A DNA stretch of 62,693 nt from a bacterium. GTDB taxonomy: Bacteria; Bacillota; Limnochordia; DTU080; RSA5. The notes beneath the pieces are model-generated. The model was not told where the DNA came from and made no database searches. It saw only the letters and a list, made by a program, of their open reading frames with translations. Positions within the stretch are counted from its first letter, which is position 1, and each line of letters begins with the position of its first letter. The DNA is taken from assembly GCA_002919195.1 (NCBI GenBank), contig PKEU01000188.1, positions 1 through 62,693 of the forward strand. Reading direction: 5' to 3'. The position numbers and the translations under genes were made by a program. Of the stretch, positions 24,489 to 61,387 are shown piece by piece.

Positions 24489-24529
24489 CTCCCACCGACG
24501 TCCGTCTCATGATCCCGCAGGTTGAAACC

Positions 24530-25723
24530 TCACGAAGCAGGGCTCGTCTCGTCCTCACGGCCTGTTTCATCGCCAAAGGGAACCCTGGCGACGATGCGGG
24601 TTCCCTGGCCTTGGGCGCTCGAGACGAAAAATTCCCCGTCTAAAAGCTCGATCCTTTCCTTCATGCTCATGAGGCCGAAGCTCTCCCGGTCCGCCCATTC
24701 GGCCTGCAGCGCTTGGACGTCAAAGCCGACCCCGTCGTCCTCGACAGTGACCACGAGGTAACGGTTGTCGACAAACTCCAGCGTCACCTCGATGGAGCTG
24801 GCTTGCGCGTGCTTGCGGGCGTTGTTGACTGCCTCCTGCACCATGCGGTAGACAGCCACTTCCTGCATCGAGCCCAAGCGGACCTCGGGCCCCTTGACGG
24901 TGAGGCGGACAGGGGCCGCTTCCTGCTCCCGCAAGTTTTCCAGGTACCGGTTGAGCGTCGGCACAAGCCCTAGGTCGTCCAGGGCCATAGGCCGGAGGTT
25001 AAAAATGATCCGGCGCAGCTCCCGCAGGCTCTCAGTCACCGTGGTCTTGAGCTGCGACAGCTCTTGCTGCACCTCGGGACGGCCCGCCTCGAGGAGCCGT
25101 TCGCAGATCTCAGCCCTCAAGACCACGTTGGCCATGGCCTGGGCCGGGCCGTCGTGGATCTCGCGAGCGACGCGGCGGCGCTCCTCCTCTTGGGCGCGGA
25201 TGATCCGCTCGCCCATCTGCGAACGGGCTTTGATGCCCTCCCAGTGGTCGGCGATGCGTTCGATGTTGCCGTGGAGGTAATCCATCGCCACGCCCACCCG
25301 GGAGACCATCTGCTCCGCCTTTTCCATCAGCTTTTTGACGTTGAGGAGGCTCCGCTCCAGCTCGTTCCGCTTTTTTCGCAGGGCGCTCTCCCGTTCCCGC
25401 GCCACGCTCAGCTCGACCTGCAGCCGCTCCGCAGCTTCGTAAGCATCGCGGATCGCCCGCTCCGAGTAGCGGGAGAAATCCTGACTGACACTGGCCAAAT
25501 GCCGACGGGCTTTGCGGGCTTCCCGCTCCAGCCGGTCGACAGCCTCGATCGACGCCTGCACTTCGCGGCGAAGCTCCTGGACCGCGTGGCTCAGCCTTTG
25601 GTACTCGGCCCGGGCGGCTTCGGCGATTTCAAACATCTGCTCCCGCGCGTCTTTAAGAGCGCCTAGGGTCTCCTTCAAAATCTCGTCGATGGCGCTAGCA
25701 TTGAGGCGTCGTCTCTGCCGCAT
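24530..25723 (-). CDS. degS: Cytoplasmic sensor histidine kinase, DegS-like
   Basis: No TM segments. N-terminal coiled-coil DegS-type sensor (FEIAEAARAEYQRL...SRYSERAIRDAYEAAERLQVEL), H-box RRVAREIHDGPAQ, LRPMALDDLGLVPTL, and an HATPase C-terminus. This closely parallels B. subtilis DegS as I recall it. Start taken at Met18. Confidence 0.8.
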   Translation of the reverse strand: MRQRRRLNASAIDEILKETLGALKDAREQMFEIAEAARAEYQRLSHAVQELRREVQASIEAVDRLEREARKARRHLASVSQDFSRYSERAIRDAYEAAERLQVELSVARERESALRKKRNELERSLLNVKKLMEKAEQMVSRVGVAMDYLHGNIERIADHWEGIKARSQMGERIIRAQEEERRRVAREIHDGPAQAMANVVLRAEICERLLEAGRPEVQQELSQLKTTVTESLRELRRIIFNLRPMALDDLGLVPTLNRYLENLREQEAAPVRLTVKGPEVRLGSMQEVAVYRMVQEAVNNARKHAQASSIEVTLEFVDNRYLVVTVEDDGVGFDVQALQAEWADRESFGLMSMKERIELLDGEFFVSSAQGQGTRIVARVPFGDETGREDETSPAS

Positions 25724-25834
25724 CCGTGTCCGTTCCTCTTTCCGCCAATCCCTTGGGCCTAAGTGACAAACCACCTTTTAGCTTTCTGCGCCGAAGGCTT
25801 GAAATCCCTCCGGGAGCCTTTTCGAAATCTCCGG

Positions 25835-26527
25835 TCACTCCGCCAGGGCAAAGGCGTCCAACGCCTCCTGGTCGCGGATCACCAGATGCCGGCCCTCCAC
25901 CGTGAGGCAACCGGCGTCTTGAAACTCGGCCAAGATGCGGGTGATGGTCTCGCGGGCGGTCCCCACCAGGTTGGCGAGCTCCTGATGGGTCAGCTTAAGC
26001 TCGATGCGCACGCCCTGCGGGCTGCGGGTGCCGTGCCGCTCCGCGAGGTCAAAGAGGGTGCGGGCGACCCGGCTCTTCACATCGCGAAAGATCACATCCA
26101 TCACCTGGGCGTTGGCCTGGCGCAGCCGGCCGCACAGCACTTTGATGATGTGAATCGCCCGGGCGGGGTTGGCCGACAAAAAGGCGAGAAACTCCTTGCG
26201 GTGTAGCGAGAAAAGCGTCGTCGCCTCCAAGGTCTCGGCGATGGCCGAGCGGGGCTCTTCATCCAAGAGGGCCATCTCGCCAAAGATGTCGCCCGGCCCC
26301 AAGATGGCCAGGGTCTTTTCCCGGCCGTCTTCGGCCACCCGGTAGATCTTGACCATCCCCGACGCGACGATAAAGAGGGCGTCTCCCGGATCGCCCTCAA
26401 AAAAGATGACACTCCCCTTGCGGTGCCGTTTTTCAACCAGCATGGCCGCGAGCGCGGCGATGTGCTCGTCTTCGAGCCCCGCAAAGAGGGGCACTTCCCT
26501 GAGTAAGCTTTTACGTTCGATTGCCAA
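25835..26527 (-). CDS. Crp/Fnr family transcriptional regulator (cNMP-binding domain plus HTH)
   Basis: VIFFEGDPGDALFIVASGMVKIY...GDIFGEMALLD is the cNMP-binding fold. C-terminal HTH: LTHQELANLVGTARETITRIL. Confidence 0.85.
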   Translation of the reverse strand: MAIERKSLLREVPLFAGLEDEHIAALAAMLVEKRHRKGSVIFFEGDPGDALFIVASGMVKIYRVAEDGREKTLAILGPGDIFGEMALLDEEPRSAIAETLEATTLFSLHRKEFLAFLSANPARAIHIIKVLCGRLRQANAQVMDVIFRDVKSRVARTLFDLAERHGTRSPQGVRIELKLTHQELANLVGTARETITRILAEFQDAGCLTVEGRHLVIRDQEALDAFALAE

Positions 26528-26553
26528 GGGGCCCTTTGCCTCCTCCGACGCGC

Positions 26554-28395
26554 CTAGTCGCCCTGGTCGGCATCCTCAGCAGCGTCGTCACTGGTTTGGC
26601 CGCCGGAACTCTTTTTCTGCTGGCCGGGCGCATGCTGCAGCCCGGGCGCGCGCTCACGCCCCCGCTCACCGGGAACCTGGCCCTGCGGAGCGGCGTTTTT
26701 CTCGTCGCGTTTTTCATCGCGCTGTTCCTCGCCGCGCCCCTTCGCCCCCTGGCCTTTCCCATTTTCGTTGCCGTTATTGGGGCCTGACTTGCGCTCGTCC
26801 CGTTCGCCCTTGCCCCGGTCGTCACCAGCACTTGGGCCACTCTTTTCGTCCTGGCTACGGCCTCGTCCATTGTTTTGTTGTGAGCCGCGATCATCGCGAT
26901 CCTTGTCAGGGCGATGATCGTTGGAGCTCGAGCCGCGGTCCCCGCCGGCGCTGCGGCCCCGGTCGTCGTCGCTCATGCCCTGCTCCAACGCCGCGCTCGC
27001 CCCCCGCGCCTCCCTCACCTCCGCCGCGCGGGCATGTCCGGGCGGGCCGCCGCGATCGGCGTCGACCACCCGTTCCCGGGGCGGCTCATCGTAGGTGGAG
27101 CTTACAGATACACTGGCCGCGGCAGGCGCATCGTCCTGCCGGGCGGCCCGGCTTGCGACGCTCGCAGTCCGGGCGATCGCTTCCCGCCCCGGCTGGGTGT
27201 TATCGCCTGCGCCGCCTTCCGCGCCGTCCCTCTCTTCGTCCCGGCGGCGAGGCTCGTCCGGAGCCGGCGGGGCGATCGAATCGCCGGTCGCGTCGCCCGG
27301 CGAATCCTCCCCATTGTAGCTCAGCAAGCTGGGGAGTGTCGGGATGGGTCCGGGAGGCCACACCGGGGTGGGAAAATGAAAGCGAAAACCGTCCGGTTGG
27401 CGGGAGTTTCCACCGTCACCGCCGGATCCAGCTTCACCGGCGCCCTCCACCAGCTCCGGGCCGCCGCCGCTGCTCGCCGGCGTGCCGCCCGCCGCTTGAG
27501 AACGCGGCTCCTCTAACCCCTCTTCGGCGCCCTGCTCCTTTCCGGGCCGCAGCAACCGGGAGAAGAACCCAAAAAGCCCCCCTTGGGCCTGCTCCCGGCG
27601 GGAGGCCTTCCACTCCTCTTGTTCTTTGAGCCACGGCTGCATCTCGCCCCAACGCCGCGACTCCTCGGCGCCCAGGAGGCGTGGACCCACGGGTTCTTGC
27701 TCCGGCAAGACCTCGATCTCCTCACCCACTCCGACAAGGTACTCGTTGCGGGGCGCAAGGGGGCTCGCCACGGCGACAACCCCTTCGCGCACTGAGACAA
27801 TGGTCCTGCCCGTCACGCCCACGTCGACGGCAAAGAGGGTGCCTCGCACCCCCGCGATCGCGCTGGGCGTTTCAACCGAAAAGTTTCGGAGCCGGCTGAG
27901 CGCCTCGGCAACATGGACCCAGACCCTTCCCACCCAAAGGCGGAGGGTCGGCAGCTGCTCCCCCGTCTCGGGGTCCACCTCCCGCAGGAGCCCCGTGACG
28001 ACCTCGACACGGCTGCTGGGCGCGACCCGGACGCGCGCGGTGTGTTCAAACTCCACTTCGATCCAACTGTCTTCACCGGTCCAGATCTGATCGCCCCGGA
28101 AAAGCAAAAGTCCCGGCTTGACCGGCGACATCATGCGTTCGTCGGGCGTGCCCCGGTCGCGGATGACCGAGACGTTGCCATAGGACGCGATGACGATCGC
28201 GATGGGCGTTTCATCTTGAAGGAGGATTTCTTCACCGTTTAAAGCATTGGCGAGCAAGACGGAGGGGTTCGACCAGAGGGAGCCAAGGAGAGCGAGCACG
28301 ACAAGAAACGCGGCGGCAGCCGCCCATCCTACCCTTTCCCGCATCGATACCACCCCGCCAACCAGATTGGTAAGCCTCGAGCCCGACCATCCCAT
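26554..28395 (-). CDS. Membrane-anchored FecR-domain protein with a ~320-aa low-complexity charged tail
   Basis: One N-terminal TM helix (VGWAAAAAFLVVLALLGSLW), a FecR-type beta domain (...VRVAPSSRVEVV...TPSAIAGVRGTLFAV...), then G/D/R/E/S-rich sequence to the stop. An alternative start lies at 28344. Confidence 0.7.
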   Translation of the reverse strand: MGWSGSRLTNLVGGVVSMRERVGWAAAAAFLVVLALLGSLWSNPSVLLANALNGEEILLQDETPIAIVIASYGNVSVIRDRGTPDERMMSPVKPGLLLFRGDQIWTGEDSWIEVEFEHTARVRVAPSSRVEVVTGLLREVDPETGEQLPTLRLWVGRVWVHVAEALSRLRNFSVETPSAIAGVRGTLFAVDVGVTGRTIVSVREGVVAVASPLAPRNEYLVGVGEEIEVLPEQEPVGPRLLGAEESRRWGEMQPWLKEQEEWKASRREQAQGGLFGFFSRLLRPGKEQGAEEGLEEPRSQAAGGTPASSGGGPELVEGAGEAGSGGDGGNSRQPDGFRFHFPTPVWPPGPIPTLPSLLSYNGEDSPGDATGDSIAPPAPDEPRRRDEERDGAEGGAGDNTQPGREAIARTASVASRAARQDDAPAAASVSVSSTYDEPPRERVVDADRGGPPGHARAAEVREARGASAALEQGMSDDDRGRSAGGDRGSSSNDHRPDKDRDDRGSQQNNGRGRSQDEKSGPSAGDDRGKGERDERKSGPNNGNENGKGQGAKGRGEEQRDEKRDEKNAAPQGQVPGERGRERAPGLQHAPGQQKKSSGGQTSDDAAEDADQGD

Positions 28396-28465
28396 CTACC
28401 ATCCCAGCTTCAGTGTCATCCAATCTCTTCAGCGTGTCTGTGACCACGGTCACCGTTTGAAAAAG

Positions 28466-30364
28466 TTACTCGAAAGCAGCAGGATCATCTGGAGGTACCA
28501 GATCATCGACGTCCTTGAGATCGCTAGCGGCAATGACGGAACGGCCAGGGGTCAGCTGGTAGAGCTCGACGGGTTTGGCCCGCCCCCTAAGGTGAGTCGC
28601 CCCCAAGGGAGTCACCTGCATGGCGACGCCCCCTCCCACCTGCGCCATGGTCTCCTCGCTGGCCACGACCGTCCCCGGCGGCGCGAGCTCTTGCAGCCTC
28701 GAAGCGACGTTGACGGCGTCGCCGATGGCCGTGTACTCTTGGCGCCGCCACGAGCCGACCGAGCCGATAATCGCTTCCCCTGTGTGAATCCCTACGCCGA
28801 TTTCCAGACGTTCCCTCCTTCCAGAAGTTACCTTTTTTTCCAGTTCAATCCGGCGAAGCATGTGGAGGCCAGCCCGGACCGCCTGCTCTGCGTGATCCTC
28901 GGAGGGGATGGGAGCGCCAAAGACCGCCATCAACCCGTCGCCGAGGAACTTGTCGACCATCCCGCCGTGGAGCAACACCGACTCCGTCATGATCTCGAGA
29001 TACCGGTTGAGCCTCAATACCACGTCTTCGGGCCGCTCCACTTCGGCGTAGCCCGTAAATCCTCTCACGTCGGCAAAGAGGATGGTCACCTCGCGGCGAG
29101 CGCCTTGGGTTTCGGCGATCCCCGGATCCTCAAGCAGGATGTCGACCACCTCCGGGGCGACGTACCGGCGAAAAGTCTCCCGGATCCGTTGCGCCTCCCG
29201 TTCGGCCTGCTGCCGGGTAACCCACAATCCCACCGCGTAGGTAACGATCAGCGTCAAAGAGACGGGCGCCACCGGCACCCACGTGCCGGCGGCGGTAAAC
29301 CGCCACAGGGCCGTCCCGCCGCTCGCGAGCACCAGGCCCAAAAAGACGCCGCTCGCCTTCCACGGCCCCAAACCAAAAGCGGCAGCGCCCATGATGATCC
29401 CGGTGGCGAGCGCCGCCAGCGCGCCCATCCAAGGACTTGTGCGGTGGATGTACTGGCCGTCGAGGAAAGACGAGACCGCCGCGGCGTGGATATAGACACC
29501 GGGGATGCTCCCGAGAGGACGTAGAGGCGTCAGGTGCCGGTCGTGGGTCTCAAGGCCGGCGGCCGTCACCCCCACCAGCACGGGGCGGCCGGCAAGACGG
29601 CTGCGCATGCGCCCCGCCAAGACGTCGGCGGCGGAGACTGTCTCCGCGATGCTGTCGACCGAAAGGCGGCCGCCGGAACCCGCGAGCCGGTAATTGACGA
29701 GGAGCCTTCCAGAGGCGTCCAGGGGCGGGGCTTTCAGCCCTCCCTCGCCCGCCCGCGAGGCGAGCGAGGCGACGATCCAACTAAAGGCTCTGACCGGCCC
29801 CTGGGCCGTATTCACTTCGAAAGCGAAGCGACGGACCACGCCGTCCCCGTCGACGACGGTGTTGATGTGGCCCACACGGACGTTGGGCGAAAGAAAGGTA
29901 TCGTCCGGGATGAGCTCCCGGTCGCCGGCCCGCGCGAGCGCCAGCACCACCGGCGCCTGCCCCTGGCCCAAAGCCCTGGCGAGGCGGCTGTCGGCCCACG
30001 CGTCGTCCAACTCCGAATAGATGATGTCGACACCCAGCACCGAAGGGTTCGCGTTGAGGATGGCCGTAAACAGCTCCGCTTGAACCGCCCGGGGCCAGGG
30101 CCAGCGGCCGTACTCGAGCACGGATCGGTCGTCGATGGCGACCACGGTCACAGGGCTGCGCTCAGGCTCCGGCGCGACCAGGTAACGAGCGATGAAACGG
30201 GCGTCGAGCGTCAACCATTCTAAAGCGTCCAGCAGTCCCAGCTGTGTAAGGAGAAGGATCAAGGCGGCGATCAATAGCCCCACGCAGGCGCCTAAGACCG
30301 ATCGCCGCCAGTTCTTCTGTCCGAGGGCCCGCCTCCAGGCGGTGCCGATCAAAGATCTTGTCAT
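28466..30364 (-). CDS. CHASE2-sensor class III adenylate/guanylate cyclase
   Basis: TM helix, extracytoplasmic CHASE2-like region, three TM helices, then cyclase domain VTILFADVRGFTGYAE...GDGLMAVFGAP...IGVGIHTGEAIIGSVGS...YTAIGDAVNVASRL. The ATG at 30364 overlaps the VanZ stop (ATGA). The upstream 75 aa of ORF 28466..30589 are rejected. Confidence 0.8.
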   Translation of the reverse strand: MTRSLIGTAWRRALGQKNWRRSVLGACVGLLIAALILLLTQLGLLDALEWLTLDARFIARYLVAPEPERSPVTVVAIDDRSVLEYGRWPWPRAVQAELFTAILNANPSVLGVDIIYSELDDAWADSRLARALGQGQAPVVLALARAGDRELIPDDTFLSPNVRVGHINTVVDGDGVVRRFAFEVNTAQGPVRAFSWIVASLASRAGEGGLKAPPLDASGRLLVNYRLAGSGGRLSVDSIAETVSAADVLAGRMRSRLAGRPVLVGVTAAGLETHDRHLTPLRPLGSIPGVYIHAAAVSSFLDGQYIHRTSPWMGALAALATGIIMGAAAFGLGPWKASGVFLGLVLASGGTALWRFTAAGTWVPVAPVSLTLIVTYAVGLWVTRQQAEREAQRIRETFRRYVAPEVVDILLEDPGIAETQGARREVTILFADVRGFTGYAEVERPEDVVLRLNRYLEIMTESVLLHGGMVDKFLGDGLMAVFGAPIPSEDHAEQAVRAGLHMLRRIELEKKVTSGRRERLEIGVGIHTGEAIIGSVGSWRRQEYTAIGDAVNVASRLQELAPPGTVVASEETMAQVGGGVAMQVTPLGATHLRGRAKPVELYQLTPGRSVIAASDLKDVDDLVPPDDPAAFE

Positions 30365-30768
30365 GGCCGCCGTCGGCTCCCAAGACGAAGTTGGGGTTGC
30401 CGTCCGTGGCGATTTGCCCAGCGCGTCCAAAGGCTCAGGGCCATCGCGGCCCCGAGGGCGTCCGCGACCAGGTCCTTTAACGAAGGGTCCCGTCCGGGGA
30501 CAAAGCTTTGGTGATACTCGTCGGTTACCCCGTAGACGACCGCGACCATCCAGGCGATCCACCACGCCGTCCGGGGCGGCGCTTGCCACGCGCGGCGAAG
30601 CGCGGCGTGAAGCAACAAGGCCAGGACTGCGTAAGCAGCCGCGTGCAAGAGGTAATCAGGGATCCGGATCCCGATCTCCTCGATCTCGCCTCCGGGGATC
30701 GACGACAGGTAATACAAGAGCCCCATATACCCGATGGGGAGAAGCGTGTACCCAACCCGGCTCCACAT
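30361..30768 (-). CDS. VanZ family membrane protein
   Basis: DYLLHAAAYAVLALLL...DEYHQSFVPGRDPSLKDLVADALGAAMAL pattern, with four predicted TM helices. Confidence 0.75.
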   Translation of the reverse strand: MWSRVGYTLLPIGYMGLLYYLSSIPGGEIEEIGIRIPDYLLHAAAYAVLALLLHAALRRAWQAPPRTAWWIAWMVAVVYGVTDEYHQSFVPGRDPSLKDLVADALGAAMALSLWTRWANRHGRQPQLRLGSRRRP

Positions 30769-31660: not shown

Positions 31661-34600
31661 TTACCAAAGGTACGGCAGAGCGAGAGAGACTTCAAGGCGG
31701 GGCCCCTGGTGCCTCGCCGACGCGCCGGTCAAAACCCCGGTCAAAGCTCCGGCCCCAGCCGGCAGCTCCGTCCAAGACACCGCTTGAGCCCCGGCGCCGT
31801 TTTCTGCCGCTCCTCCCGGCGAAAGCCCGTCTTGCACATCCCACACGAGGCCGACGCGAAGCACGGGTCCTTGCTCCCCGGGAGAAAGGCCTCGCTCCAG
31901 CCCGATGCCGTACCGCAGGTCCTTGCGCCCGCCCGTGGTGACCGTCCATGAAGAGCTCGCCGCCACGGCCCACGGGCCGGTGATGTGCCGGCGGATCGAA
32001 ATATGGTACGCAGCGTGCTGCAAGGCCGTGTCGTGCACTCCCACTTTGCGCTGGACTTCAGCCCGTCCCGTCCAGGGACCCTTGGACGCTGCCGCTCGGA
32101 GCACGGAGGTGGTGTACTCTTGCCACGCTCCTTTCTCATGCACCGCTCCCCGTCCCCAGCCAGCCTGCCACCGGCCGAAGCTCCAGTTTCCTCCCACGAC
32201 GAATATGGCCTCCAGCTCGCCGTCGTCCCGGTTGACCTTCCCGTCGACTTCGAGCCCCCACTCCCAGCGACCATCGGCGGTATCCCCTTCGATGAGGAAG
32301 CGCCAATCTGTTTTTTCGTATGCGTTGGCTCGCCAAAACGCCGCAGAGCCATCGCCCGCCGCCGTCCCGCTCCACTCCAGCCGGGTGAGCGCCGTTCCCC
32401 GCCGCAGGTCGATCCTGAGCTTGTCCTTGATCTCTTTCAGGTCCACCGCCCGGCTCAACCGGAGGCCGGTGTTGAGCTGCAGTGGCGCCGTTTCCCCGGG
32501 AGCCGGCCAGCTGAAAGAGCGGTTCAGCGTGACGCCGAGCTCATAGGCCTGGTCCACCTCGCCATAGGGCGCCATGATCTCGTACTTGGCCCACGGCCGG
32601 ACCTGGCCCCGGGTGACTCGCCAGCTCACCGCGAGGCGCCGGTCACCCCGGGAGAGGTGATCGGGGTTGTCGGTCGACGCCAAGACCAGCGCCCCCGCCT
32701 CAAGGCGCACGTCGTGCACCCCTGCCAGCCTGCTCCCGAGCCGCGCCGCAAGCCGAGCCGGCCCGGCCGGCCTTCCCTCGGCCCGTTCCCACTGGATCGC
32801 AGTGGAGATGTCGACTCGCTCGGCGCCGATGGTGAGCGGCCGCCAGGTGATCCCCAGCTCATGGGCACTCCCCTGGCCCTTTGAGCCCGCCTCTCCCGCA
32901 GTCATGGGCCAGACCATCCCCGACCACCACACGGCTTGCAGGGCGTTTCCTACCGGCGGGGCGGCCACCGCATGCCACCGCCAGCCGTCAAAGGGAGAAA
33001 AGCCGCACGAGGGCGAGAGTTCCCGCGGCCGTCCGCCTGAGAGCTCAAGGGAGTAGGGCCAGCGCCGGCCCGAAAGCACGACTCCCCCGTCCACCTCCAA
33101 CCGGAGCTCCTGCGGCTCCCCCTCCTTGAGACCGGTCCGCTCGACCCGGGTGTGACGCCCCCGGGTCGAGATCAAGGCAATACGGTTTCCCGGCGCAACA
33201 TAGGCCGCGCTCGCCTCTTGCAAGCTGCATGTCCAAAGATCGCCGGCGGCGTAGCCCCACTCCATCCCGAGCTGCAGCCTTCCCGGCAAATCCCGGTACG
33301 GCCCCGCGATCTCCCCCGGCGGGATCGACGCACCCGCATCCCTTCTTTCGGGCTTGAGGTCGACCTTGAGCCGGTACGCGGCTTCGGCGGGCTTGGACGG
33401 CCGCAAGAGCCCCAGCTTGACCTCGCGCTCAAGGCCCCTTTGCAGCTGGAAGGCAACGTCAACCCCCTCGGATCGAGCCGCCGCTTCAAACCTCAAGTCG
33501 TCCAAGAGCGTCTCGCCCGCGCCGCGACCGGCTTCGCGCGCAGCACCTCCTGTAAGGTCCAACGAGAAGGTGGCATCGGGATGCGCGACTCCGGCCCGCA
33601 GTGTCGTTTGAGCGCTTTGGCGGTCGCTCCCGGCGTCAAGATGTCCCAAGAGCGCGAGGTACCCCGAACTAGAGCCATCCGTTCCCCGCGCCTTTCCATC
33701 TCGATCCGAATCCTGACCCACCGCAGCGCTTTCATCCGGCGGAACGAGCGGAAGATCTACGCGCCCATGCGCGATCCATAGCTCCTCGGCGGAAATAGAA
33801 CGCGGCAGGCTTGTCCCCCGGTGGCTCTCCGCCCACATGAGCGAGGGGTAGTGGCCCATCTCAAACCGGAACTCTCCCCGCCGGTTGGTCTGGGCGAGGC
33901 GCCTGCCGTCCACCAACACACTCGCTCCGGCGACGAGCGGTTCACCCTCCTCGTACGCCCCACTGCCGTTGAGGTCGAGAAACACCCTCCCCGAGATCTC
34001 TACCGGCGGGAGGAGCAGCGGATCCTCAGCCACCGAGAGCGGAAGGCGCCTTTCCGCAAGCAACCCCCGATCGCCTCCAGGCTCGAGCGCCCCGGTAACC
34101 CGGATGACCATGTCGCTCCTCGCCTCGCGAAGCCTTGCCAGATCCCCCTCCCAGGCAACGACGTTGAACCGGACCCTCTTTTGCCGGTTCCCCTGCAGCG
34201 TGCCCAAGAGCAAGACCTCGCAGGAGCGATCCCAACCGGCGCTCGCAACCGAGCTCGCCCATCCCGACACCCTGGGGACGTCCGAGTCGACAATGCGCCA
34301 GCCCGGCGAAAGGCAGATTTCAGCCCGGAGCTCCATCAAAGTGACCCCTTCGGGGTTGATCACCGTCAGGGACCAGACCACAGGCTCGCCCGGCCGGGGA
34401 GGATCGCCCGCGACAACGAGCTTGACCTCAGGAAAACTGACAAGAGAAGACTCGGGCCCAACACCGTCCGTCGCTACAGCCCGGGCCGTTCCAAGCGCGA
34501 GGGGTTGCACCGCCTCGCCTTGCGCCTGCACGTAAAACACTCCCGAGGCGAGGAGCGTACCCTCTCCCTCTCGCACGATGCGGAAGCGATACACGCCCGC

Positions 34601-35377
34601 CTCAAGCCCGCTTTCAGGTAGGCTGTGCCAAACGACGACGTGCCACGGGCCTTCCCCCGCGGGTGCGGTGAGCTGCGCGACAAGGTCGACGTCGTCTTTC
34701 CAAACATCCAACCGGACAAGCTCGCCTGGCTCAAGCGCCCGTTTGCCCCCACCGGTTGGAGCGAAAAACCAGAAACTTAGCGGCTCCCTATACCCCGCGA
34801 GCACTTCCGAGGGGTGCACGTAGGCAAAGAGCGCGTTGTCCCCTGCAGCGAGGGTAGTCGTTACCTGGGTGACGATCGCCGTTCCGGGTGGATCGTCCCA
34901 AGAGGGGTGAACCTCGACGTCGACCCGGATCGCCTCGCCTTGAGGACCCGTCGGCCCGCCCCGTTGAACGATTCGGGCTTCATCCAAGGAAACCCGGACC
35001 CAGTCAGGCTCACCGCCCGGCCCGATGAGCGTGCCCATTCCCTCGCGGCTCACGCCCACCAAAATCGAGGAGCCCATCGGCGTCTTCTCGCCGCCGGCCA
35101 CGACCCGGGACGTCACGATCAGTTCCCAAGGTTCGTCGGAAACCACAGTGAGCTGCTGCGCTCCCGCAAGCCTCACAGAGCGGCCGGGAACAAGCTCGGG
35201 CAACGTCCAATGAGCTTCCGATCCGTGAAGGGAAAGCCCAACACCGCTGGCGGCCACCAGGGAAAAGCGCGCTTGCAGCGCAGCGAGCCCAACCGTCAGC
35301 GCGATTGAGAAAAGCACTGCGATCGCCGCCGGAAGAAGCGCCGCAAAGGCGGCGGATGGGTCCCACCGCCGCCTCAT
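31661..35377 (-). CDS. 1238-aa secreted multidomain protein: subunit-like N-terminal domain, Ig-like/DUF11-like and SdrD-B-like repeats, and a large predicted C-terminal OM beta-barrel
   Basis: Signal peptide MRRRWDPSAAFAALLPAAIAVLFSIALTVGLAALQA. The N-terminal ~150 aa are paralogous to the product of 36234..36854. GRVFLDLNGSGAYEEGEPLVAGASVLVDGRRLAQTNRRGEFRF is a Cna-B/SdrD-B-like motif. The last ~650 aa are beta-strand-patterned and end ...RLEVSLALPYLW, an OMP beta-signal. The start overlaps the upstream stop. Confidence 0.6.
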   Translation of the reverse strand: MRRRWDPSAAFAALLPAAIAVLFSIALTVGLAALQARFSLVAASGVGLSLHGSEAHWTLPELVPGRSVRLAGAQQLTVVSDEPWELIVTSRVVAGGEKTPMGSSILVGVSREGMGTLIGPGGEPDWVRVSLDEARIVQRGGPTGPQGEAIRVDVEVHPSWDDPPGTAIVTQVTTTLAAGDNALFAYVHPSEVLAGYREPLSFWFFAPTGGGKRALEPGELVRLDVWKDDVDLVAQLTAPAGEGPWHVVVWHSLPESGLEAGVYRFRIVREGEGTLLASGVFYVQAQGEAVQPLALGTARAVATDGVGPESSLVSFPEVKLVVAGDPPRPGEPVVWSLTVINPEGVTLMELRAEICLSPGWRIVDSDVPRVSGWASSVASAGWDRSCEVLLLGTLQGNRQKRVRFNVVAWEGDLARLREARSDMVIRVTGALEPGGDRGLLAERRLPLSVAEDPLLLPPVEISGRVFLDLNGSGAYEEGEPLVAGASVLVDGRRLAQTNRRGEFRFEMGHYPSLMWAESHRGTSLPRSISAEELWIAHGRVDLPLVPPDESAAVGQDSDRDGKARGTDGSSSGYLALLGHLDAGSDRQSAQTTLRAGVAHPDATFSLDLTGGAAREAGRGAGETLLDDLRFEAAARSEGVDVAFQLQRGLEREVKLGLLRPSKPAEAAYRLKVDLKPERRDAGASIPPGEIAGPYRDLPGRLQLGMEWGYAAGDLWTCSLQEASAAYVAPGNRIALISTRGRHTRVERTGLKEGEPQELRLEVDGGVVLSGRRWPYSLELSGGRPRELSPSCGFSPFDGWRWHAVAAPPVGNALQAVWWSGMVWPMTAGEAGSKGQGSAHELGITWRPLTIGAERVDISTAIQWERAEGRPAGPARLAARLGSRLAGVHDVRLEAGALVLASTDNPDHLSRGDRRLAVSWRVTRGQVRPWAKYEIMAPYGEVDQAYELGVTLNRSFSWPAPGETAPLQLNTGLRLSRAVDLKEIKDKLRIDLRRGTALTRLEWSGTAAGDGSAAFWRANAYEKTDWRFLIEGDTADGRWEWGLEVDGKVNRDDGELEAIFVVGGNWSFGRWQAGWGRGAVHEKGAWQEYTTSVLRAAASKGPWTGRAEVQRKVGVHDTALQHAAYHISIRRHITGPWAVAASSSWTVTTGGRKDLRYGIGLERGLSPGEQGPVLRVGLVWDVQDGLSPGGAAENGAGAQAVSWTELPAGAGALTGVLTGASARHQGPRLEVSLALPYLW

Positions 35378-36237
35378 CGCGACGTCTCCTCGCCCGCGCC
35401 GTCGCTAAAACCTCCCCTGGCAAGCTCGGCGCCTGCGGCCCACGTGTACGGGAAAGGCGCACTCCTCCAGCCGTCGCCGTACACCTCGGCCACGACGCGA
35501 AGGGGCTCCGGCTCGGCCGGGAAACTTGCCCGCGCCCTGAAGGTTCGGACCGCCCCCGGCAAGACCCGCTGCTCGGGAAGCAGGAGCTGCCCCAGATCGT
35601 CCCCGTCGCTGCCGGTCAGCCTCACCCGGCCCCGCACCCAGTCGTGGACGTTCCCCACGTTGCGCACGGTGACGTCGACCTCGAAGTCGTGGCCATCCTC
35701 CCCCGGAAAGACGCGCACGCTTTCGACGACAAAGTCTGGACGCCGCTCCTCACGGGTGGAGGTGTACGTCAACAGCAGCGGAATCGCGAGCCTCGTCACC
35801 GAGCGCACCATCGACGACGGAAGCGACTCCTTCTCATCGAGCGGGTGAACCTCCGCGAAGATGACCGGGTACGCAGCTACCGCTCCAGGAACCGCCGGCA
35901 GCTCCAAGGAGAGTGACCGCATCGCTCCAGGACCCAGAGTGACACGGCTCGAGCCCAATCGCACCAGCGCTGCGCTCTGTTTCATCGCCTGTGGGTCGTC
36001 GAAGTAGAGCGGCGCGCCGTCCTCCTCGTGCCCGCCCATTCCGGTGGAAAAGCGTAGCTCGACCGGTTGTTCGCCCCGGTTGAAAAGAGTCAACCACGCC
36101 TTGGAACCCCCAGGTTCCACCTCCACCTCAAGGCGCGCCGGAGAAATGACCACGCTCACGGCGACCGCGTTCATCGTCAAGCCGATGAACACCGCGACCA
36201 GAACGACGACAACTTGAAACCAGCGACGCCTTTTCAA
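35374..36237 (-). CDS. Secreted two-domain beta-sandwich protein, periplasmic chaperone-like (function unknown)
   Basis: Signal peptide MKRRRWFQVVVVLVAVFIGLTMNAVA. Domain 1 is VVISPARLEVEVEPGGSKAWLTLFNRGEQPVELRF... Domain 2 is DFVVESVRVFPGEDGHDFEVDVTVRNVGNVHDWVRGRVRL... There are 4-nt overlaps with both neighbours. Confidence 0.55.
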   Translation of the reverse strand: MKRRRWFQVVVVLVAVFIGLTMNAVAVSVVISPARLEVEVEPGGSKAWLTLFNRGEQPVELRFSTGMGGHEEDGAPLYFDDPQAMKQSAALVRLGSSRVTLGPGAMRSLSLELPAVPGAVAAYPVIFAEVHPLDEKESLPSSMVRSVTRLAIPLLLTYTSTREERRPDFVVESVRVFPGEDGHDFEVDVTVRNVGNVHDWVRGRVRLTGSDGDDLGQLLLPEQRVLPGAVRTFRARASFPAEPEPLRVVAEVYGDGWRSAPFPYTWAAGAELARGGFSDGAGEETSR

Positions 36238-36854
36238 TACCCGACACCTGCCGTATACGTGAGAACAATGCGGTACTCCCGGCCGGGCGGCAGGGCGGTA
36301 GCGTCAAAATCGGGAGTGACGCGGAGGAGAAAACCCCGGGTCACGCCGTCTTCTCCCGTAGGAGGTTGATTAGAAAAGATCGCTGTCGGAGATGCACTTA
36401 CGGGAGTCCAAGGCCCGCCCATGTTAGTTGCCCACTCAAGTGGACCAACTCTCCTGCCATCTGCCACGTATTCTCTGGCGTTGGTGTCATACTCACGTAG
36501 CGTTCCATCGTTCGAATCGGAGGTGACTTGTACACCCCACGGCGCGTTGGCTTTTACTGAGATGTTCAAGATTGTTGACACCACCGGCACCCCAGGGATT
36601 GCGTCATTGCCAAGGGATAACACTGCTGGCGGCCAGGAGACAACCTCGATCGCCTCGGCGATGCTAAAGGTAACTGTTGTTTGTCCTGTCTCGACGCTCG
36701 CTGCCCACGCGACGGAGGTCCCAACCGCGAAGAACGCAAGAAACAGGGTGAACATCGCGGTCGTCCATGCTCTTGTCGCTCCACGGCCACTCCACCAGAT
36801 CCAGCGACACCTCGTGCAATTTGATTTGATCGCAAATCCCTTAAAATCCGACAA
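36234..36854 (-). CDS. Secreted ~20-kDa beta-rich subunit-like protein (pilin/WxL/SCPU-like pattern, unassigned)
   Basis: AAGGAGG SD, 7 nt, then TTG at 36854. Signal peptide ...TAMFTLFLAFFAVGTSVAWA-AS. The mature part is beta-rich and ends PPGREYRIVLTYTAGVGY. An alternative ATG lies at 36875. Confidence 0.55.
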   Translation of the reverse strand: MSDFKGFAIKSNCTRCRWIWWSGRGATRAWTTAMFTLFLAFFAVGTSVAWAASVETGQTTVTFSIAEAIEVVSWPPAVLSLGNDAIPGVPVVSTILNISVKANAPWGVQVTSDSNDGTLREYDTNAREYVADGRRVGPLEWATNMGGPWTPVSASPTAIFSNQPPTGEDGVTRGFLLRVTPDFDATALPPGREYRIVLTYTAGVGY

Positions 36855-37023
36855 CCTCGTACCTCCTTGCTGCATTAGTGGTTAACTTATCCTCTACTAT
36901 CTGATAATAATGGAGCCAAGATGTTTATGATGTCGAATTTTGTCGATAACAATATCTAAACCGCGGAAACTTCCGCGCGAGGGTAAGCTCGAAAATTGCA
37001 GTTCAAAGATTCAAATCGAAGCC

Positions 37024-37066
37024 CAAAACAAAAAGCCCGGCCCACCACACTGGGTGAAGCCGGGTT
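37024..37066 (-). terminator. Intrinsic terminator downstream of metK
   Basis: The minus strand reads CCCGGC-TT-CACC-cagtgt-GGTG-G-GCCGGG followed by CTTTTTGTTTTG, about 100 nt after the metK stop. Confidence 0.65.
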
Positions 37067-37166
37067 AAACCGAGGTAAGCCAGGCTAAACTTTGCGCCGG
37101 GATGCGATCCAGCGCCTCGGCGAAACCACAGCCGCGCGCCGCCACCTTGGCCGGCGCCGGCCGCAC

Positions 37167-39910: not shown

Positions 39911-40957
39911 ATGAAGGTGCACAAGCTGTTTCATCCAGTGGCCACGCTCATTGTGTGCTTGGCCTTGGCGGCGACGCCTGCGGCCGCCCAAGGGTTTGGC
40001 GCCCGGGCCTACGGCATGGGAGGCGCTTACACGGCTGTCGCCGACGACGTCGCTTCCCTTCTCTACAACCCTGCCGGTCTTACGGCTAGCAGCTTCGAAG
40101 CCACGTTGGGGATCGGCAGCAACGACTTCGGTGAGCTCACCAAGTTCCAAAAGATCCTCCAAAAGGATTATCCTGACGATCTTAACCTCGGCCTCAACGT
40201 GCTGGGCGGCGTGTCGCTCGGCAACTACGGCGGCGCCGTCGCGGTCGATGGCTCGGCCCGCGCCATGGGCGACTGCGAGGGCGGGCCGGAGTTTTGCGCC
40301 GACGCGGACTACATGATCCGCTACGTGGTGGGCGCGGGGTTCCAGGCCGCAGGCCTGCCTCTGGATCTAGCGGACCTCAACCTCGGCGCCAGCATCAGCC
40401 TCCTCGGCGGGCGCCGGCTCTCGCACACCCGTACCAACCTCGACGCCGCGACCTATTGGGGCGAGACGGTGGATCAACGGGCGAAAGGGTACGCGCTGAA
40501 CTTGGGCGCCCGGTTTAAGGCGACCGATATCGTGACGGTTGGGCTCGTGGCAGAAAACGTGCTTTCGTCGCTCACGTGGGAGGGCACGCGCACCGAAGGC
40601 ATCTACACCTACGCCGGCGACGAGCCGGTCGGCTCTCCGGCCGAGACTTCGCTGGACACCGTCAAGGAGCGGCTTGACACCGTCTACCGGGCTGGTGTCG
40701 CCATCGAGCCGCCCATGCTGGGCGCGACGATCGCCGCGGATGTCGCGAGCGACGGCAGCCTGCGCTTTGGCGTCGAAAAGAGCTTCCTGCTCAACCGCCT
40801 GGCTGTGCGGGCCGGCCATGCGGTCCAGGACGACGTGCGCACGACCACCGTGGGCCTCGGCTTCAATTTTGGGCCCGTGCGTGTGGACCTCGCGGCGGGA
40901 TCGTCCGACGGCTTTGAGACGGTGAACACGATGCTGGAGGGTTCCGTCCGCTTCTGA
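39911..40957 (+). CDS. Outer-membrane beta-barrel protein with a FadL/TodX-like N-terminal motif
   Basis: GGAGGG SD. Signal peptide ...CLALAATPAAAQ. GFGARAYGMGGAYTAVADDVASLLYNPAGL resembles the FadL family hatch motif (E. coli FadL: [26 protein letters not shown], from memory). C-terminal beta-signal ...MLEGSVRF. Confidence 0.6.
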   Translation: MKVHKLFHPVATLIVCLALAATPAAAQGFGARAYGMGGAYTAVADDVASLLYNPAGLTASSFEATLGIGSNDFGELTKFQKILQKDYPDDLNLGLNVLGGVSLGNYGGAVAVDGSARAMGDCEGGPEFCADADYMIRYVVGAGFQAAGLPLDLADLNLGASISLLGGRRLSHTRTNLDAATYWGETVDQRAKGYALNLGARFKATDIVTVGLVAENVLSSLTWEGTRTEGIYTYAGDEPVGSPAETSLDTVKERLDTVYRAGVAIEPPMLGATIAADVASDGSLRFGVEKSFLLNRLAVRAGHAVQDDVRTTTVGLGFNFGPVRVDLAAGSSDGFETVNTMLEGSVRF

Positions 40958-54742: not shown

Positions 54743-55031
54743 CACCAAACCCCCAGTCGTCATAAATGTGATAGCTGTGGCCATTAAGAAAGATCGGTTG
54801 AAAAACGATCGCTCCAAACACTAAGGTGATCCGCCGGGCAGAAAGCGGAATACACAAAAGAAGGAGAAACCTTTGGGCCCCGACCTGCCCTCCGGTTTCT
54901 CCATGGGGAAGAGGGACCGACGCGTCGCGACGCGCCAGTCTCGCCAATACCCCCCCGGACGACGACGTCCGACCCGCGTCTACCACCCATTGACGCCCAT
55001 TTCTGCCAAATCGCTCAATGTCCTGCTACCT

Positions 55032-61341: not shown

Positions 61342-61387
61342 GCGACAGGCACCTCCAGGCGTCTCCCCCGACGGCTTTTCAAGATGA

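What the first reader, a model, noticed from the sequence alone, without database searches (positions are those of the whole stretch)
31661..36875. Three-gene translationally coupled operon: secreted Ig-like subunit, two-domain chaperone-like protein and 1238-aa predicted OM protein. Candidate undescribed chaperone-usher-like surface-fibre system.
Seen in sequence: three consecutive minus-strand genes overlap by 4 nt at both junctions (36234-36237 and 35374-35377), so they are almost certainly co-translated.
- All three start with Sec-type signal peptides (AWA-AS; KRRR...NAVA-VS; RRR...ALQA).
- Gene 1 (36234..36854) encodes a ~180-aa beta-rich mature protein ending PPGREYRIVLTYTAGVGY.
- Gene 2 (35374..36237) has two ~110-aa beta-sandwich-like halves. 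The first opens VVISPARLEVEVEPGGSKAWLTLFNRGEQPVELRF, the strand pattern seen at the start of PapD-like chaperones and also of DUF916 proteins.
- Gene 3 (31661..35377) begins with a copy of the gene-1 fold, continues with Ig-like repeats, and ends in ~650 aa of amphipathic beta strands with an OMP-type terminal signal (LALPYLW).

Inference: subunit + periplasmic beta-sandwich partner + very large OM protein is the logic of chaperone-usher or WxL/Csc-type surface assembly. I cannot place any of the three in a named family by eye, and the host looks like a diderm Firmicute, where such machinery is essentially uncharacterised.
Basis: partly seen in the sequence, partly recalled or inferred. Interest (0 to 1): 0.85.

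Follow-up and report, generated by a model that had tools for sequence, protein, structure and literature searches.

The report
Divergent WxL/WxLIP-like envelope protein operon
Three co-translated secreted proteins in an uncultured, probably double-membraned Clostridia-type bacterium form a very divergent, unannotated relative of the Gram-positive WxL/WxLIP surface-protein clusters. Its middle protein also resembles the chaperones that build pili in Gram-negative bacteria.

Summary
Three minus-strand genes (g1 36234-36854, g2 35374-36237, g3 31661-35377) overlap by TTGA and ATGA, all have signal peptides, and they recur as a unit in at least two genomic contexts.

None of the three matches Pfam or NCBIfam directly, but g2 can be placed.
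- Its AlphaFold model (pLDDT 82) is a two-domain beta-sandwich. The best PDB match is the E. faecium WxL-interacting protein (WxLIP, 9i25), followed by dozens of chaperone-usher chaperones.
- Its profile finds 628 representative proteins. 17 of 102 sampled match Pfam WxLIP_PGBD (DUF916), and many carry the canonical C-terminal membrane helix that g2 lacks.
- Its superfamily profile aligns with a PapD-family profile at E=4e-5, placing Arg35 on Arg8.

g1 is a new, highly conserved 155-aa acidic domain that always precedes a g2-like gene. The same domain opens g3 (E=4e-7). g3 then has Ig-like and SdrD-B-like domains, followed by about 640 aa of beta-rich sequence ending in a conserved OMP-type signal. 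The g3 model failed, so a barrel is unproven. g3 shows no similarity to ushers.

Best reading: a diderm variant of a WxL/WxLIP-type complex that works by strand complementation. A true chaperone-usher fibre system remains possible but unsupported.

The parts
36907..36936 (-). sigma-70-like promoter candidate upstream of g1 (TCGACA-18-CATTAT), in the AT-rich spacer after the metK terminator
   Evidence: consensus scan: 2 sites found against 0.8 expected, so weak evidence; sequence
36862..36866 (-). Shine-Dalgarno GGAGG, 7 nt before the TTG start of g1
   Evidence: read from the sequence
36234..36854 (-). g1: small secreted protein. Signal peptide ends ...VAWA|AS. The mature protein is 155 aa, pI 4.4, and consists of a single 'g1-type' beta-rich domain. 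Motifs: VKANAPWGVQV, and C-terminal YRIVLTYTAGVGY ending 5 residues after an invariant Thr. An alternative start is ATG 36875.
   Evidence: No Pfam or NCBIfam hit. A g2-like gene follows in every locus with enough sequence.
35374..36237 (-). g2: anchorless, secreted WxLIP-like / PapD-like protein with two beta-sandwich domains (about residues 29-158 and 169-266). Conserved: SPAR (R35), N53, Y123, R149-LAIPLLLTY, NVGNVH (H198), LPGA-R (P227, R231).
   Evidence: AlphaFold2 pLDDT 82. Foldseek top hit 9i25_C WxLIP at E=1.3e-10, then CfaA, FimC, Caf1M and CsuC. 628 superfamily representatives. 17 of 102 match Pfam WxLIP_PGBD. hhalign against the PapD family gives E=4.3e-5. No C-terminal TM helix.
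35270..35377 (-). g3 signal peptide (MRRRW...GLAALQA|RF). The hydrophobic region is long, so an uncleaved anchor is not excluded.
34829..35263 (-). g3 N-terminal g1-type domain (protein residues ~39-183), with a literal W-x-L (EPWELIVTS)
   Evidence: hhalign E=2e-4; the g3N HMM hits g1 proteins at E=3.6e-7; a g1 profile hits g3 at E=4e-7 before any g3 sequence was included
33698..34828 (-). g3 middle part: two Ig-like/CARDB-like beta-sandwich domains, one SdrD-B / CarboxypepD_reg-like module (GRVFLDLNGSGAYEEGEP...NRRGEFRF), and a low-complexity linker
   Evidence: AlphaFold2 pLDDT 60-77 for mature residues ~150-410; Foldseek finds only generic Ig arrays; Pfam SdrD_B/CarboxypepD_reg in orthologues
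31664..33580 (-). g3 C-terminal beta-rich domain of ~640 aa and unknown fold, a candidate outer-membrane domain. It contains conserved LSPSCG(L/F)SPFDGWRW and NPxHLSRGDRRLA and ends ...PRLEVSLALPYLW.
   Evidence: family alignment; amphipathic-beta excess z=4.8, though this statistic is not barrel-specific; terminal aromatic conserved in 6 of 8 orthologues; no Pfam or PDB relative; the AlphaFold2 model failed here

Best explanation
The operon encodes a three-protein cell-envelope complex. It is a very divergent relative of the WxL / WxL-interacting-protein (Csc-type) clusters of Gram-positive Firmicutes, recast for a lineage that probably has an outer membrane.

g2 is a soluble periplasmic version of WxLIP/DUF916. 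It has two L-shaped Ig-like domains and lacks the usual C-terminal membrane helix. It is related in fold, and weakly in sequence, to PapD-type pilus chaperones.

g2 binds the 'g1-type' beta-sandwich domain. That domain exists free as the abundant small acidic protein g1, and again as the first domain of g3. Binding is inferred to work as described for WxLIP-WxL and for PapD-pilin pairs. A conserved edge strand of g2's first domain (R149-LAIPLLLTY) would complete or cap the partner's sandwich. The invariant Arg35 (with Arg149) would hold the partner's free C-terminus, which in every free g1-type protein lies exactly 4-5 residues after the last strand.

g3 supplies the anchor and the reach. After its g1-type domain come Ig-like and SdrD-B-like spacer modules and a ~640-aa beta-rich C-terminal domain with an OMP-type terminal signal, most likely embedded in the outer membrane.

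Shown: the gene unit, secretion signals, the g2 fold and its superfamily, the domain shared by g1 and g3, and synteny. Inferred: the strand-complementation contact, outer-membrane insertion of g3, and the role of the complex (envelope scaffold or adhesive surface structure).
For: - Coupled genes and signal peptides.
- Conserved synteny in two contexts and across deep divergence.
- g2 model pLDDT 82. The best PDB match is WxLIP bound to long WxL (9i25_C, E=1.3e-10) and free WxLIP (9i1y), followed by more than 30 chaperone-usher chaperones with TM up to 0.61.
- The g2 profile reaches 628 representatives. 17 of 102 match Pfam WxLIP_PGBD, and P0112 passes the gathering score. 22 of 102 carry the canonical C-terminal TM helix with a basic tail.
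- Small proteins next to those Pfam-type WxLIPs are reached by the g1 profile and carry a literal WxL motif at the position of g1's PWGVQV.
- In L012 a large protein carries the g1-type domain at its C-terminus, the canonical 'large WxL' layout.
- The literature describes a minimal cluster of small WxL + large WxL + DUF916, all secreted, with a WxLIP strand predicted to complete the WxL sandwich (PMC9772566, PMC10599100).
- g1 is 155 aa with pI 4.4, like small WxL proteins.
- PapD-family profile hit at E=4.3e-5 over 181 columns, with R35 on Arg8. Controls gave E=0.04-0.1.
- R149 is conserved in 86 of 102 members, and the C-terminal distance is fixed in 22 of 22 free g1-type domains.
- OMP-type C-terminal strand in g3, and OMP-like neighbours in the window.
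Against: - g1-type domains do not match Pfam WxL (0 of 25) or any PDB sequence, including WxL chains.
- g1's second 'WxL' motif is TYT, not WxL.
- g2 itself does not hit Pfam WxLIP_PGBD. DUF3324 is not among the 25 families listed for the 102 relatives scanned (35 matched).
- In g3 the shared domain is N-terminal, whereas it is always C-terminal in described large WxL proteins.
- The g3 C-terminal fold is unknown: the model failed and my barrel proxy is not specific.
- Two orthologues lack the terminal aromatic residue.
- The g1-g2 contact was not modelled, because no multimer prediction was available.
- The Deinococcus and Clavibacter small proteins were not reached by the g1 profile.
Confidence: 0.55

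Rival explanations
1. A genuine chaperone-usher-like fibre pathway. g2 caps g1 subunits in the periplasm by donor-strand complementation. g3 is the outer-membrane assembly and secretion platform. g1 polymerises by strand exchange into a surface fibre whose first or anchoring subunit is g3's own g1-type domain.
For: - The g2 fold matches FimC, CfaA, Caf1M and CsuC.
- Profile-profile hit to PapD-family chaperones at E=4.3e-5, with Arg35 on Arg8 and the conserved R149 strand on the G1 donor-strand region.
- g2 is soluble (anchorless) in the clade that has g3.
- g1 has a fixed free C-terminus and a conserved N-terminal alternating strand TTVTFSIA that g3's copy lacks, reminiscent of a pilin N-terminal extension.
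- Some relatives have three tandem g1 paralogues plus one g2, like multi-pilin operons.
- g3 ends in an OMP-type signal.
Against: - g3 has no similarity to ushers, and its domain order differs from usher architecture.
- g1-type domains show no similarity to FimA.
- None of the 102 relatives gives PapD_N or PapD_C as a recurrent Pfam hit.
- g1 is far better conserved than g2 and g3, unlike known chaperone-usher systems (my knowledge).
- The g1-g2 pair occurs without a g3-like gene and with membrane-anchored g2 relatives.
- There is no evidence of polymerisation.
Confidence: 0.2
2. A soluble secreted or periplasmic complex without membrane insertion. g3's C-terminal 640 aa would be a soluble beta-rich fold (beta-solenoid, propeller or stacked sandwiches), and the triad would be a glycan- or cell-wall-binding complex, like the peptidoglycan-associated WxL complexes of monoderms.
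For: - Canonical WxL and WxLIP proteins are wall-associated, not membrane barrels.
- My amphipathic-strand statistic also scores the beta-sandwich proteins g1 and g2 and fails on the window's OMP candidates.
- The AlphaFold model gave no barrel.
- Two orthologues lack a terminal aromatic residue.
- The L027 orthologue's C-terminal region is not detectably related.
Against: - The conserved C-terminal strand fits the OMP beta-signal pattern, with a terminal W or F in 6 of 8 orthologues.
- The host context has OMP-type proteins.
- Loss of the membrane helix from g2 in exactly this clade fits a periplasmic compartment bounded by an outer membrane.
Confidence: 0.2
3. Three unrelated hypothetical genes that merely happen to be adjacent, or spurious ORFs in high-GC DNA.
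For: High GC (65%) produces many long spurious ORFs on both strands. None of the three has a curated family hit.
Against: - Homologues exist at 25-65% identity with conserved order and overlaps in more than 20 loci.
- g2 gives a confident fold.
- g1 and g3 share a domain.
Confidence: 0.02

Closest known systems
WxL gene clusters (Csc clusters) of Lactobacillales, Listeria and Enterococcus: small WxL + large WxL + WxLIP (DUF916-DUF3324-TM helix). Sources: PDB 9i25/9i1y, PMC10599100, PMC9772566, PMC1534035.
   Same: - Three secreted proteins: a small acidic single-domain protein, a two-domain Ig-like partner, and a large multi-Ig protein that repeats the small protein's domain.
- g2's best structural match is WxLIP, and its sequence superfamily overlaps Pfam WxLIP_PGBD.
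- There is an aromatic-x-L/V motif after '(K/R)(S/A)N' and a C-terminal 'Y..(T/V).(Y/W)T' strand.
- The shared domain sits at a free C-terminus in all small proteins.
- The partner is predicted to donate a strand.
   Different: - g1-type domains are not recognised by Pfam WxL.
- The second WxL motif is TYT.
- g2 lacks the TM helix, and no DUF3324 match was seen.
- In g3 the shared domain is N-terminal, and the C-terminus is a 640-aa beta-rich domain with an OMP-type end.
- There is no LPxTG partner.
- The host is probably diderm, and is environmental (bioreactor-type metagenomes) rather than a gut lactic acid bacterium.
PapD-like periplasmic chaperones of the chaperone-usher pathway (FimC, PapD, CfaA, Caf1M, CsuC)
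   Same: - Periplasmic, signal peptide, about 230-260 aa, two Ig-like domains.
- Foldseek E about 1e-8, TM up to 0.61.
- Profile-profile E=4.3e-5 across both domains.
- Invariant Arg on the first strand at the Arg8 position, and a conserved basic residue at the strand equivalent to G1.
- Encoded between a small subunit-like gene and a very large envelope-protein gene, with translational coupling.
   Different: - No Pfam PapD_N or PapD_C match.
- The large partner is not an usher by any test.
- The small partner is not a recognisable pilin.
- The conservation pattern is reversed (the small protein is the most conserved).
- Relatives occur membrane-anchored in apparent monoderms.
OmpM / SlpA-type connectors of Terrabacteria diderms (N-terminal periplasmic wall-binding part + C-terminal outer-membrane barrel; PMC10628300, PMC9388160)
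   Same: Overall layout of g3, if its C-terminal domain is a barrel: periplasmic modules at the N-terminus, a membrane domain at the extreme C-terminus, and the same kinds of host (diderm Firmicutes, Deinococcus).
   Different: No SLH domain and no coiled coil. No sequence similarity was tested or found. This is a resemblance of layout only, based on my knowledge and the abstracts seen.
Classical (type Va) autotransporters
   Same: N-terminal passenger of beta-rich modules and a C-terminal beta domain ending in an aromatic residue.
   Different: The C-terminal domain is twice the size of a 12-strand translocator. There is no Pfam Autotransporter match. The system needs two dedicated partner proteins.

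Membership tests
WxL cluster: WxLIP (DUF916/DUF3324) component | Match to Pfam WxLIP_PGBD (PF06030, formerly DUF916) | tested here: inconclusive
   g2 itself gives no hit at E<=10. The g2-family profile finds relatives at E about 1e-9 to 1e-11 library-wide, and those do match: 17 of 102, best 1.5e-10, with P0112 at 28.5 bits against a cut-off of 27.3.
WxL cluster: WxLIP component | Two tandem Ig-like beta-sandwich domains forming one unit | tested here: met
   AlphaFold2 pLDDT 82.3. Foldseek top hit 9i25_C WxLIP over 263 columns at E=1.3e-10; also 9i1y.
WxL cluster: WxLIP component | C-terminal transmembrane helix | tested here: not met
   g2 and its close clade end in a polar tail. 22 of 102 more distant members do have the helix with a basic tail.
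WxL cluster: WxLIP component | Second domain matches DUF3324 (host-binding domain) | tested here: not met
   DUF3324 is not among the 25 families listed (of 35 matched) for the 102 relatives; the second domain gives CARDB, NPCBM_assoc, DUF7507 and fn3_5-type weak hits.
WxL cluster: WxL domain proteins | Match to Pfam WxL, with two W-x-L motifs | tested here: not met
   0 of 25 g1-type domains hit Pfam WxL at E<=1. There are no PDB sequence hits with four different queries. Motif 1 is present as W-G-V (W-E-L in g3; W-K-L and W-T-L in relatives). Motif 2 is replaced by T-Y-T.
WxL cluster: small WxL protein | Single domain of ~180 aa directly after the signal peptide, with acidic pI | tested here: met
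   Mature g1 is 155 aa with pI 4.4. Criterion taken from PMC9772566.
WxL cluster: large WxL protein | [quoted passage not shown] | tested here: not met
   In g3 and its orthologues the shared domain is N-terminal. The canonical C-terminal layout is seen only in the distant locus L012.
WxL cluster: cluster definition | At least one WxLIP plus two proteins carrying the shared domain, encoded adjacently and all secreted | tested here: met
   g1 + g2 + g3 (with its g1-type N-domain) are overlapping genes with three signal peptides. This holds only if the g1-type domain is accepted as the WxL equivalent.
Chaperone-usher pathway: chaperone | Match to Pfam PapD_N / PapD_C | tested here: not met
   No hit for g2. 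Neither family is among those recurring in the 102 relatives.
Chaperone-usher pathway: chaperone | PapD-like two-domain fold with a conserved Arg8 / Lys112-type carboxylate anchor | tested here: inconclusive
   Foldseek E about 1e-8 and TM 0.5-0.6 to CfaA, FimC, Caf1M and CsuC. hhalign A5 against A12 gives E=4.3e-5 and 69% probability over 181 columns, with R35 on Arg8; controls gave 0.04-0.1. R35 is R/K in 64 of 102 members and R149 is R in 86 of 102. The spatial arrangement was not checked.
Chaperone-usher pathway: usher | Usher/PapC family membership (24-strand barrel with plug, N- and C-terminal periplasmic domains) | tested here: not met
   No Pfam or NCBIfam hit. hhalign of the g3 family against FimD gives E=0.16 over 19 columns. 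The domain order differs. The structure model was not usable.
Chaperone-usher pathway: subunit | Incomplete Ig fold completed by a donor strand, with an N-terminal extension for strand exchange | not testable with these tools
There is no similarity to FimA. The only pointer is a conserved N-terminal alternating strand in g1 that is absent from g3's copy.
Outer-membrane beta-barrel protein (g3 C-terminal domain) | C-terminal beta-signal ending in an aromatic residue | tested here: met
   ...SLALPYLW. The terminal residue is W or F in 6 of 8 orthologues.
Outer-membrane beta-barrel protein (g3 C-terminal domain) | Closed transmembrane beta-barrel | tested here: inconclusive
   AlphaFold2 pLDDT 20-35 in this region. 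The dyad-alternation excess (z=4.8) is not specific, because the OMP controls scored z=1.0 and -0.7. No PDB or Pfam relative was found.
   No hits for g1, g2 or g3 at E<=10. Only SdrD_B/CarboxypepD_reg (related to Cna_B-type folds) appears in orthologues of g3.

The most novel reading that the evidence does not exclude
The triad is a living intermediate between Gram-negative chaperone-usher pili and Gram-positive WxL/WxLIP clusters. g2, a soluble PapD/WxLIP-like chaperone, caps g1 subunits by donor-strand complementation and hands them to g3, a new kind of outer-membrane platform whose own first domain is a subunit copy. The result is a surface fibre or sheath in diderm Clostridia. When the outer membrane was lost, the chaperone would have gained a membrane helix and become WxLIP.
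Probability: 0.15. Interest if true: 0.9.

Novelty: new variant of a known kind. Interest (0 to 1): 0.62.

Why it matters
- WxL/WxLIP clusters are known only as wall-associated adhesion complexes of monoderm Firmicutes, and their mechanism is only now being solved. This locus shows the same logic in a probably diderm relative: a small domain protein, a strand-donating two-domain partner, and a large protein repeating the domain. Here the partner has lost its membrane anchor, and the large protein ends in an OMP-like domain.
- It exposes a large, almost entirely unannotated superfamily: 628 representative clusters for g2, of which only about one in six sampled is recognised by Pfam.
- It gives the first sequence-level hint here (E=4e-5, with a conserved Arg8-equivalent) that WxLIP-type proteins and PapD-type pilus chaperones are related.
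- If confirmed, this bears on how envelope-assembly systems were remodelled during the transition between diderm and monoderm Firmicutes. It would also define three new protein families, including a ~640-aa candidate outer-membrane domain.

Tried and rejected
- Direct Pfam and NCBIfam scans of g1, g2 and g3 gave nothing significant.
- PDB sequence searches with profiles of g1, g2 and g3, with broadened g1-type profiles, and with a single small protein gave nothing.
- Word-indexed protein searches for g3, as a single sequence and as an alignment, returned only 3 clusters. The second search was wasted, and the g3 alignment could not be deepened.
- The first GTDB scan with close-family motifs found nothing. 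The second scan found one MAG.
- The g3 AlphaFold2 model with 3 sequences failed (pLDDT 34). Its Foldseek search returned only generic Ig arrays such as transglutaminase, integrin, alpha-2-macroglobulin and RbmA.
- My dyad-alternation 'barrel' statistic looked striking at first. I reject it as barrel evidence after calibration on the window's own OMP candidates.
- The Deinococcus plasmid cluster looks analogous by eye, but hhalign gave only E=0.017-0.22, and the iterated g1 profile did not reach it. I keep it as an analogy only.
- g3 against the FimD usher, g3 against the L022 825-aa OMP-like protein, and g1-type domains against FimA gave no similarity.
- Rfam found no RNA element in the window.
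- Literature searches found no paper describing WxL-type clusters in diderms, and I could not find the paper behind PDB 9i25.

Full report
**1. The observation**

The window has three consecutive minus-strand ORFs:
- g1, 36234-36875 (213 aa from the ATG)
- g2, 35374-36237 (287 aa)
- g3, 31661-35377 (1238 aa)

The sequence shows both junctions directly. g1's TGA overlaps g2's TTG start (TTGA), and g2's TGA overlaps g3's ATG (ATGA). The most likely g1 start is TTG 36854, 7 nt after GGAGG. A sigma-70-like site lies at 36936-36907 in the AT-rich spacer that follows metK. No convincing terminator separates g3 from the MTAP-like gene 36 nt downstream.

All three products begin with signal-peptide-like segments, and the homologues keep them.

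**2. None of the three is in a curated family, and the close families are tiny**

Pfam and NCBIfam give no significant hit for any of the three. Among 5.8 billion protein clusters, g2 has 8 relatives and g3 has 3, all from metagenome assemblies. A motif scan of 185,579 GTDB species genomes found none of the close family.

**3. The triad is a conserved unit**
- In L001 and L007 it sits in the same context as in the window: PorV-like protein, TlpA-like redoxin, metK, g1, g2, g3, MTAP-like. L027 has the same metK - g1 - g2 - g3 order, with an oxidoreductase gene before MTAP; L006 shows the same upstream genes, g1 and g2, but its contig ends just after g2.
- L001 additionally carries the CHASE2 cyclase, FecR and Crp genes.
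- In L002-L004 the triad sits next to a DUF456 gene instead.
- A metagenome scan with the g1 profile gave 15 more loci.
- HMM mapping shows a g2-like gene directly after g1 wherever enough sequence is available. A g3-like gene follows in the metK-linked clade.
- g1 is by far the best conserved part: 59-65% identity where g2 is 29-38% and g3 25-31%.

**4. What g2 is**

*Structure.* AlphaFold2 on the 8-sequence alignment gives a confident model (pLDDT 82.3, pTM 0.70) with two beta-sandwich domains. The best Foldseek match in the PDB is 'WxLIP from Enterococcus faecium locus A bound to long WxL' (9i25_C, E=1.3e-10), with free WxLIP (9i1y) also present. It is followed by a long run of chaperone-usher chaperones (CfaA, FimC, Caf1M, CsuC, DraB, SafB, CupB2) with target-normalised TM up to 0.61.

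*Superfamily.* An exhaustive HMM search with the g2 profile finds 628 representative proteins at E<=1e-3, most of them covering both domains.
- Of 102 sampled, 17 match Pfam WxLIP_PGBD (formerly DUF916; best 1.5e-10).
- None shows PapD_N or PapD_C as a recurrent hit.
- P0112 passes the Pfam gathering score.
- Twenty-two of the 102 carry the canonical WxLIP C-terminal membrane helix with a basic tail. g2 and its close clade lack it.

*Link to PapD chaperones.* I built a PapD-family profile from FimC, MrkB, PefD, FaeE, FedD and two further plasmid-borne fimbrial chaperones.
- The 102-sequence g2-superfamily profile aligns with it at E=4.3e-5 (69% probability) over 181 collinear columns spanning both domains.
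- The alignment puts g2's SPAR Arg35 on the chaperones' invariant Arg8. It puts Asn53 on the invariant Asn, and the conserved RLAIPLLLTY strand on the G1-strand region SRIKLYYRP.
- Controls with the same PapD profile against the other beta-rich alignments gave E=0.04-0.1 over 19-32 columns. A generic single-Ig match gave 2e-3.
- I rate this link as moderate, not proven.

**5. What g1 is**

Mature g1 is a 155-aa acidic (pI 4.4) beta-rich protein with no Pfam or PDB relative.

*The domain recurs in other proteins.*
- It forms the N-terminus of g3. Support: hhalign E=2e-4; the g3N HMM hits foreign g1 proteins at 3.6e-7; the g1 profile hits the window's g3 at 4e-7 before any g3 sequence entered the profile.
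- It occurs as three tandem paralogues next to a g2-like gene in L022-L025.
- It occurs as the small protein preceding membrane-anchored g2 relatives in L008 and L009.
- It occurs as the small protein preceding the Pfam-type WxLIPs of L011 and L012.
- It forms the C-terminus of a 600-aa protein in L012.

*Shared features across the 25 aligned domains.*
- An '(K/R)(S/A)N-x-x-W-x-(L/V/I)' motif: literally W-K-L, W-T-L and W-E-L in several members, and W-G-V in g1.
- A final 'Y-R-I-V-L-T-Y-T' strand.
- All 22 free domains end exactly 4-5 residues after the invariant Thr.

*Comparison with described WxL clusters.* The literature defines the minimal WxL cluster as a small acidic WxL protein of ~180 aa, a large multi-Ig WxL protein and a DUF916 protein, all secreted. 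A WxLIP strand is predicted to fill a gap in the WxL sandwich (PMC9772566, PMC10599100). The logic here is the same. However, no g1-type domain matches Pfam WxL (0 of 25), and four profile searches failed to reach solved WxL chains. g1 therefore occupies the position of a WxL domain without demonstrable membership.

**6. What g3 is**

After the signal peptide and the g1-type domain come:
- two Ig-like domains, modelled at pLDDT 60-77;
- an SdrD-B/CarboxypepD_reg-like module, which Pfam recognises in the L027 and L002 orthologues and, as an analogy, in a Deinococcus cluster;
- a low-complexity linker;
- about 640 aa of conserved, beta-rich sequence with no relatives in Pfam or the PDB.

This last region ends in ...PRLEVSLALPYLW. 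The terminal strand, with a final W or F, is kept in 6 of 8 orthologues and fits the OMP beta-signal pattern as I know it.

I could not settle the fold. Its Foldseek hits are generic Ig arrays. My alternation statistic is high for this region (z=4.8). It is not barrel-specific, because the window's own PorV-like and DUF5723-like proteins score 1.0 and -0.7 while g1 and g2 score 2-2.8.

g3 has no similarity to the FimD usher (E=0.16).

**7. Host**
- The window carries DegS/DegU, RecD2/YrrC, Lnt, a MacB/HlyD efflux set, a protein with the PorV/PorQ N-terminal signature and a DUF5723 protein. The last two end in ...VRF and ...LRF.
- A syntenic locus lies in a MAG titled 'uncultured Clostridia bacterium'.
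- Other loci come from a bioreactor metagenome and from unnamed metagenome contigs.

A high-GC, diderm Clostridia/Limnochordia-like host is plausible but was not proven here.

**8. Interpretation**

The best-supported reading (confidence 0.55) is a divergent, diderm-adapted WxL/WxLIP-type envelope complex. In it, the anchorless g2 binds g1-type domains (free g1 and the head of g3) by strand complementation, and g3 provides the anchor, probably in the outer membrane.

- Against it: g3 has no usher features, g1-type domains have no pilin features, the conservation pattern is reversed, and g1-g2 pairs occur without g3.
- For it: the tandem g1 paralogues, and g1's conserved N-terminal alternating strand that g3's copy lacks. 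These are what one would expect of strand exchange, so the model is not excluded.

A soluble-complex rival (0.2) remains because the barrel is unproven.

**9. Novelty**

I found no paper describing WxL-type clusters in diderm lineages. I classify the locus as a new variant of a known kind. It has three unannotated families, a large hidden g2 superfamily, and a possible evolutionary bridge between WxLIP and PapD-type chaperones.

Noticed in passing
window 39911-40957 (+): A 348-aa secreted protein with a PorV/PorQ-family N-terminal signature (NCBIfam 5.6e-10, partial match) and no Pfam hit. It ends ...EGSVRF. It is conserved next to the TlpA-like redoxin, metK and the triad in L006 and L007, so it is a likely FadL/PorV-type outer-membrane protein of this lineage.
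   Followed up: partly
window 53354-54817 (-): A 487-aa protein matching DUF5723 (1.8e-8) and ending ...FSTGLRF. It is a second OMP-type candidate and supports a diderm envelope.
   Followed up: no
window 23781-30589 (-): A run of signalling genes lies downstream of the triad: CHASE2-adenylate cyclase, a FecR-domain protein with a ~380-aa charged low-complexity tail, a Crp-family regulator and a DegS/DegU pair. The same order is present in L001. A regulatory link to the triad is possible but untested.
   Followed up: no
window 35374-35400 (-): The conserved C-terminal 'GAGEETxR' of g2 coincides with the GAGGAG Shine-Dalgarno of g3. The conservation there may therefore be at the nucleotide level (translational coupling) rather than the protein level.
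   Followed up: partly
window 36876-37166 and whole window: Rfam finds no RNA family anywhere in the 62.7-kb window. In particular, no SAM riboswitch is detected near metK.
   Followed up: no
L022 5716-8983; L024 5884-9111; L025 5733-9002: A more distant cluster type has three tandem g1 paralogues (with a small lipoprotein-like ORF between the first two) plus one g2-like gene and no g3. It is followed by FapA-like and chemotaxis-type genes. L022 has an 825-aa OMP-like protein upstream, ending ...SASYRLAF.
   Followed up: partly
L013 (Deinococcus sp. D7000 plasmid CP058536.1, record 79362-87723): A cluster of 'hypothetical proteins': a WxLIP_PGBD-like protein of 300 aa, an overlapping small protein of 189 aa with g1-like motifs (KPWTVQMEV, GGPWLDVTGAPQMVFSN), a 1018-aa SdrD_B/Ig protein and a 747-aa protein. 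It looks like an analogous system in another diderm, but the profile statistics are weak (E=0.017-0.2).
   Followed up: partly
g2 residues 149-160 and g1 residues 194-203 (window 35758-35793 and 36246-36275): g2's conserved strand RLAIPLLLTYTS and g1's C-terminal strand YRIVLTYTAG share the core 'L-L/V-L-T-Y-T'. This could reflect strand mimicry between the partner and the subunit, or it could be coincidence.
   Followed up: no
window 58717-61485 (-): A 922-aa ORF whose only Pfam hit is a short Xre/MbcA/ParS C-terminal toxin-binding domain (6.5e-6). It is otherwise unassigned.
   Followed up: no
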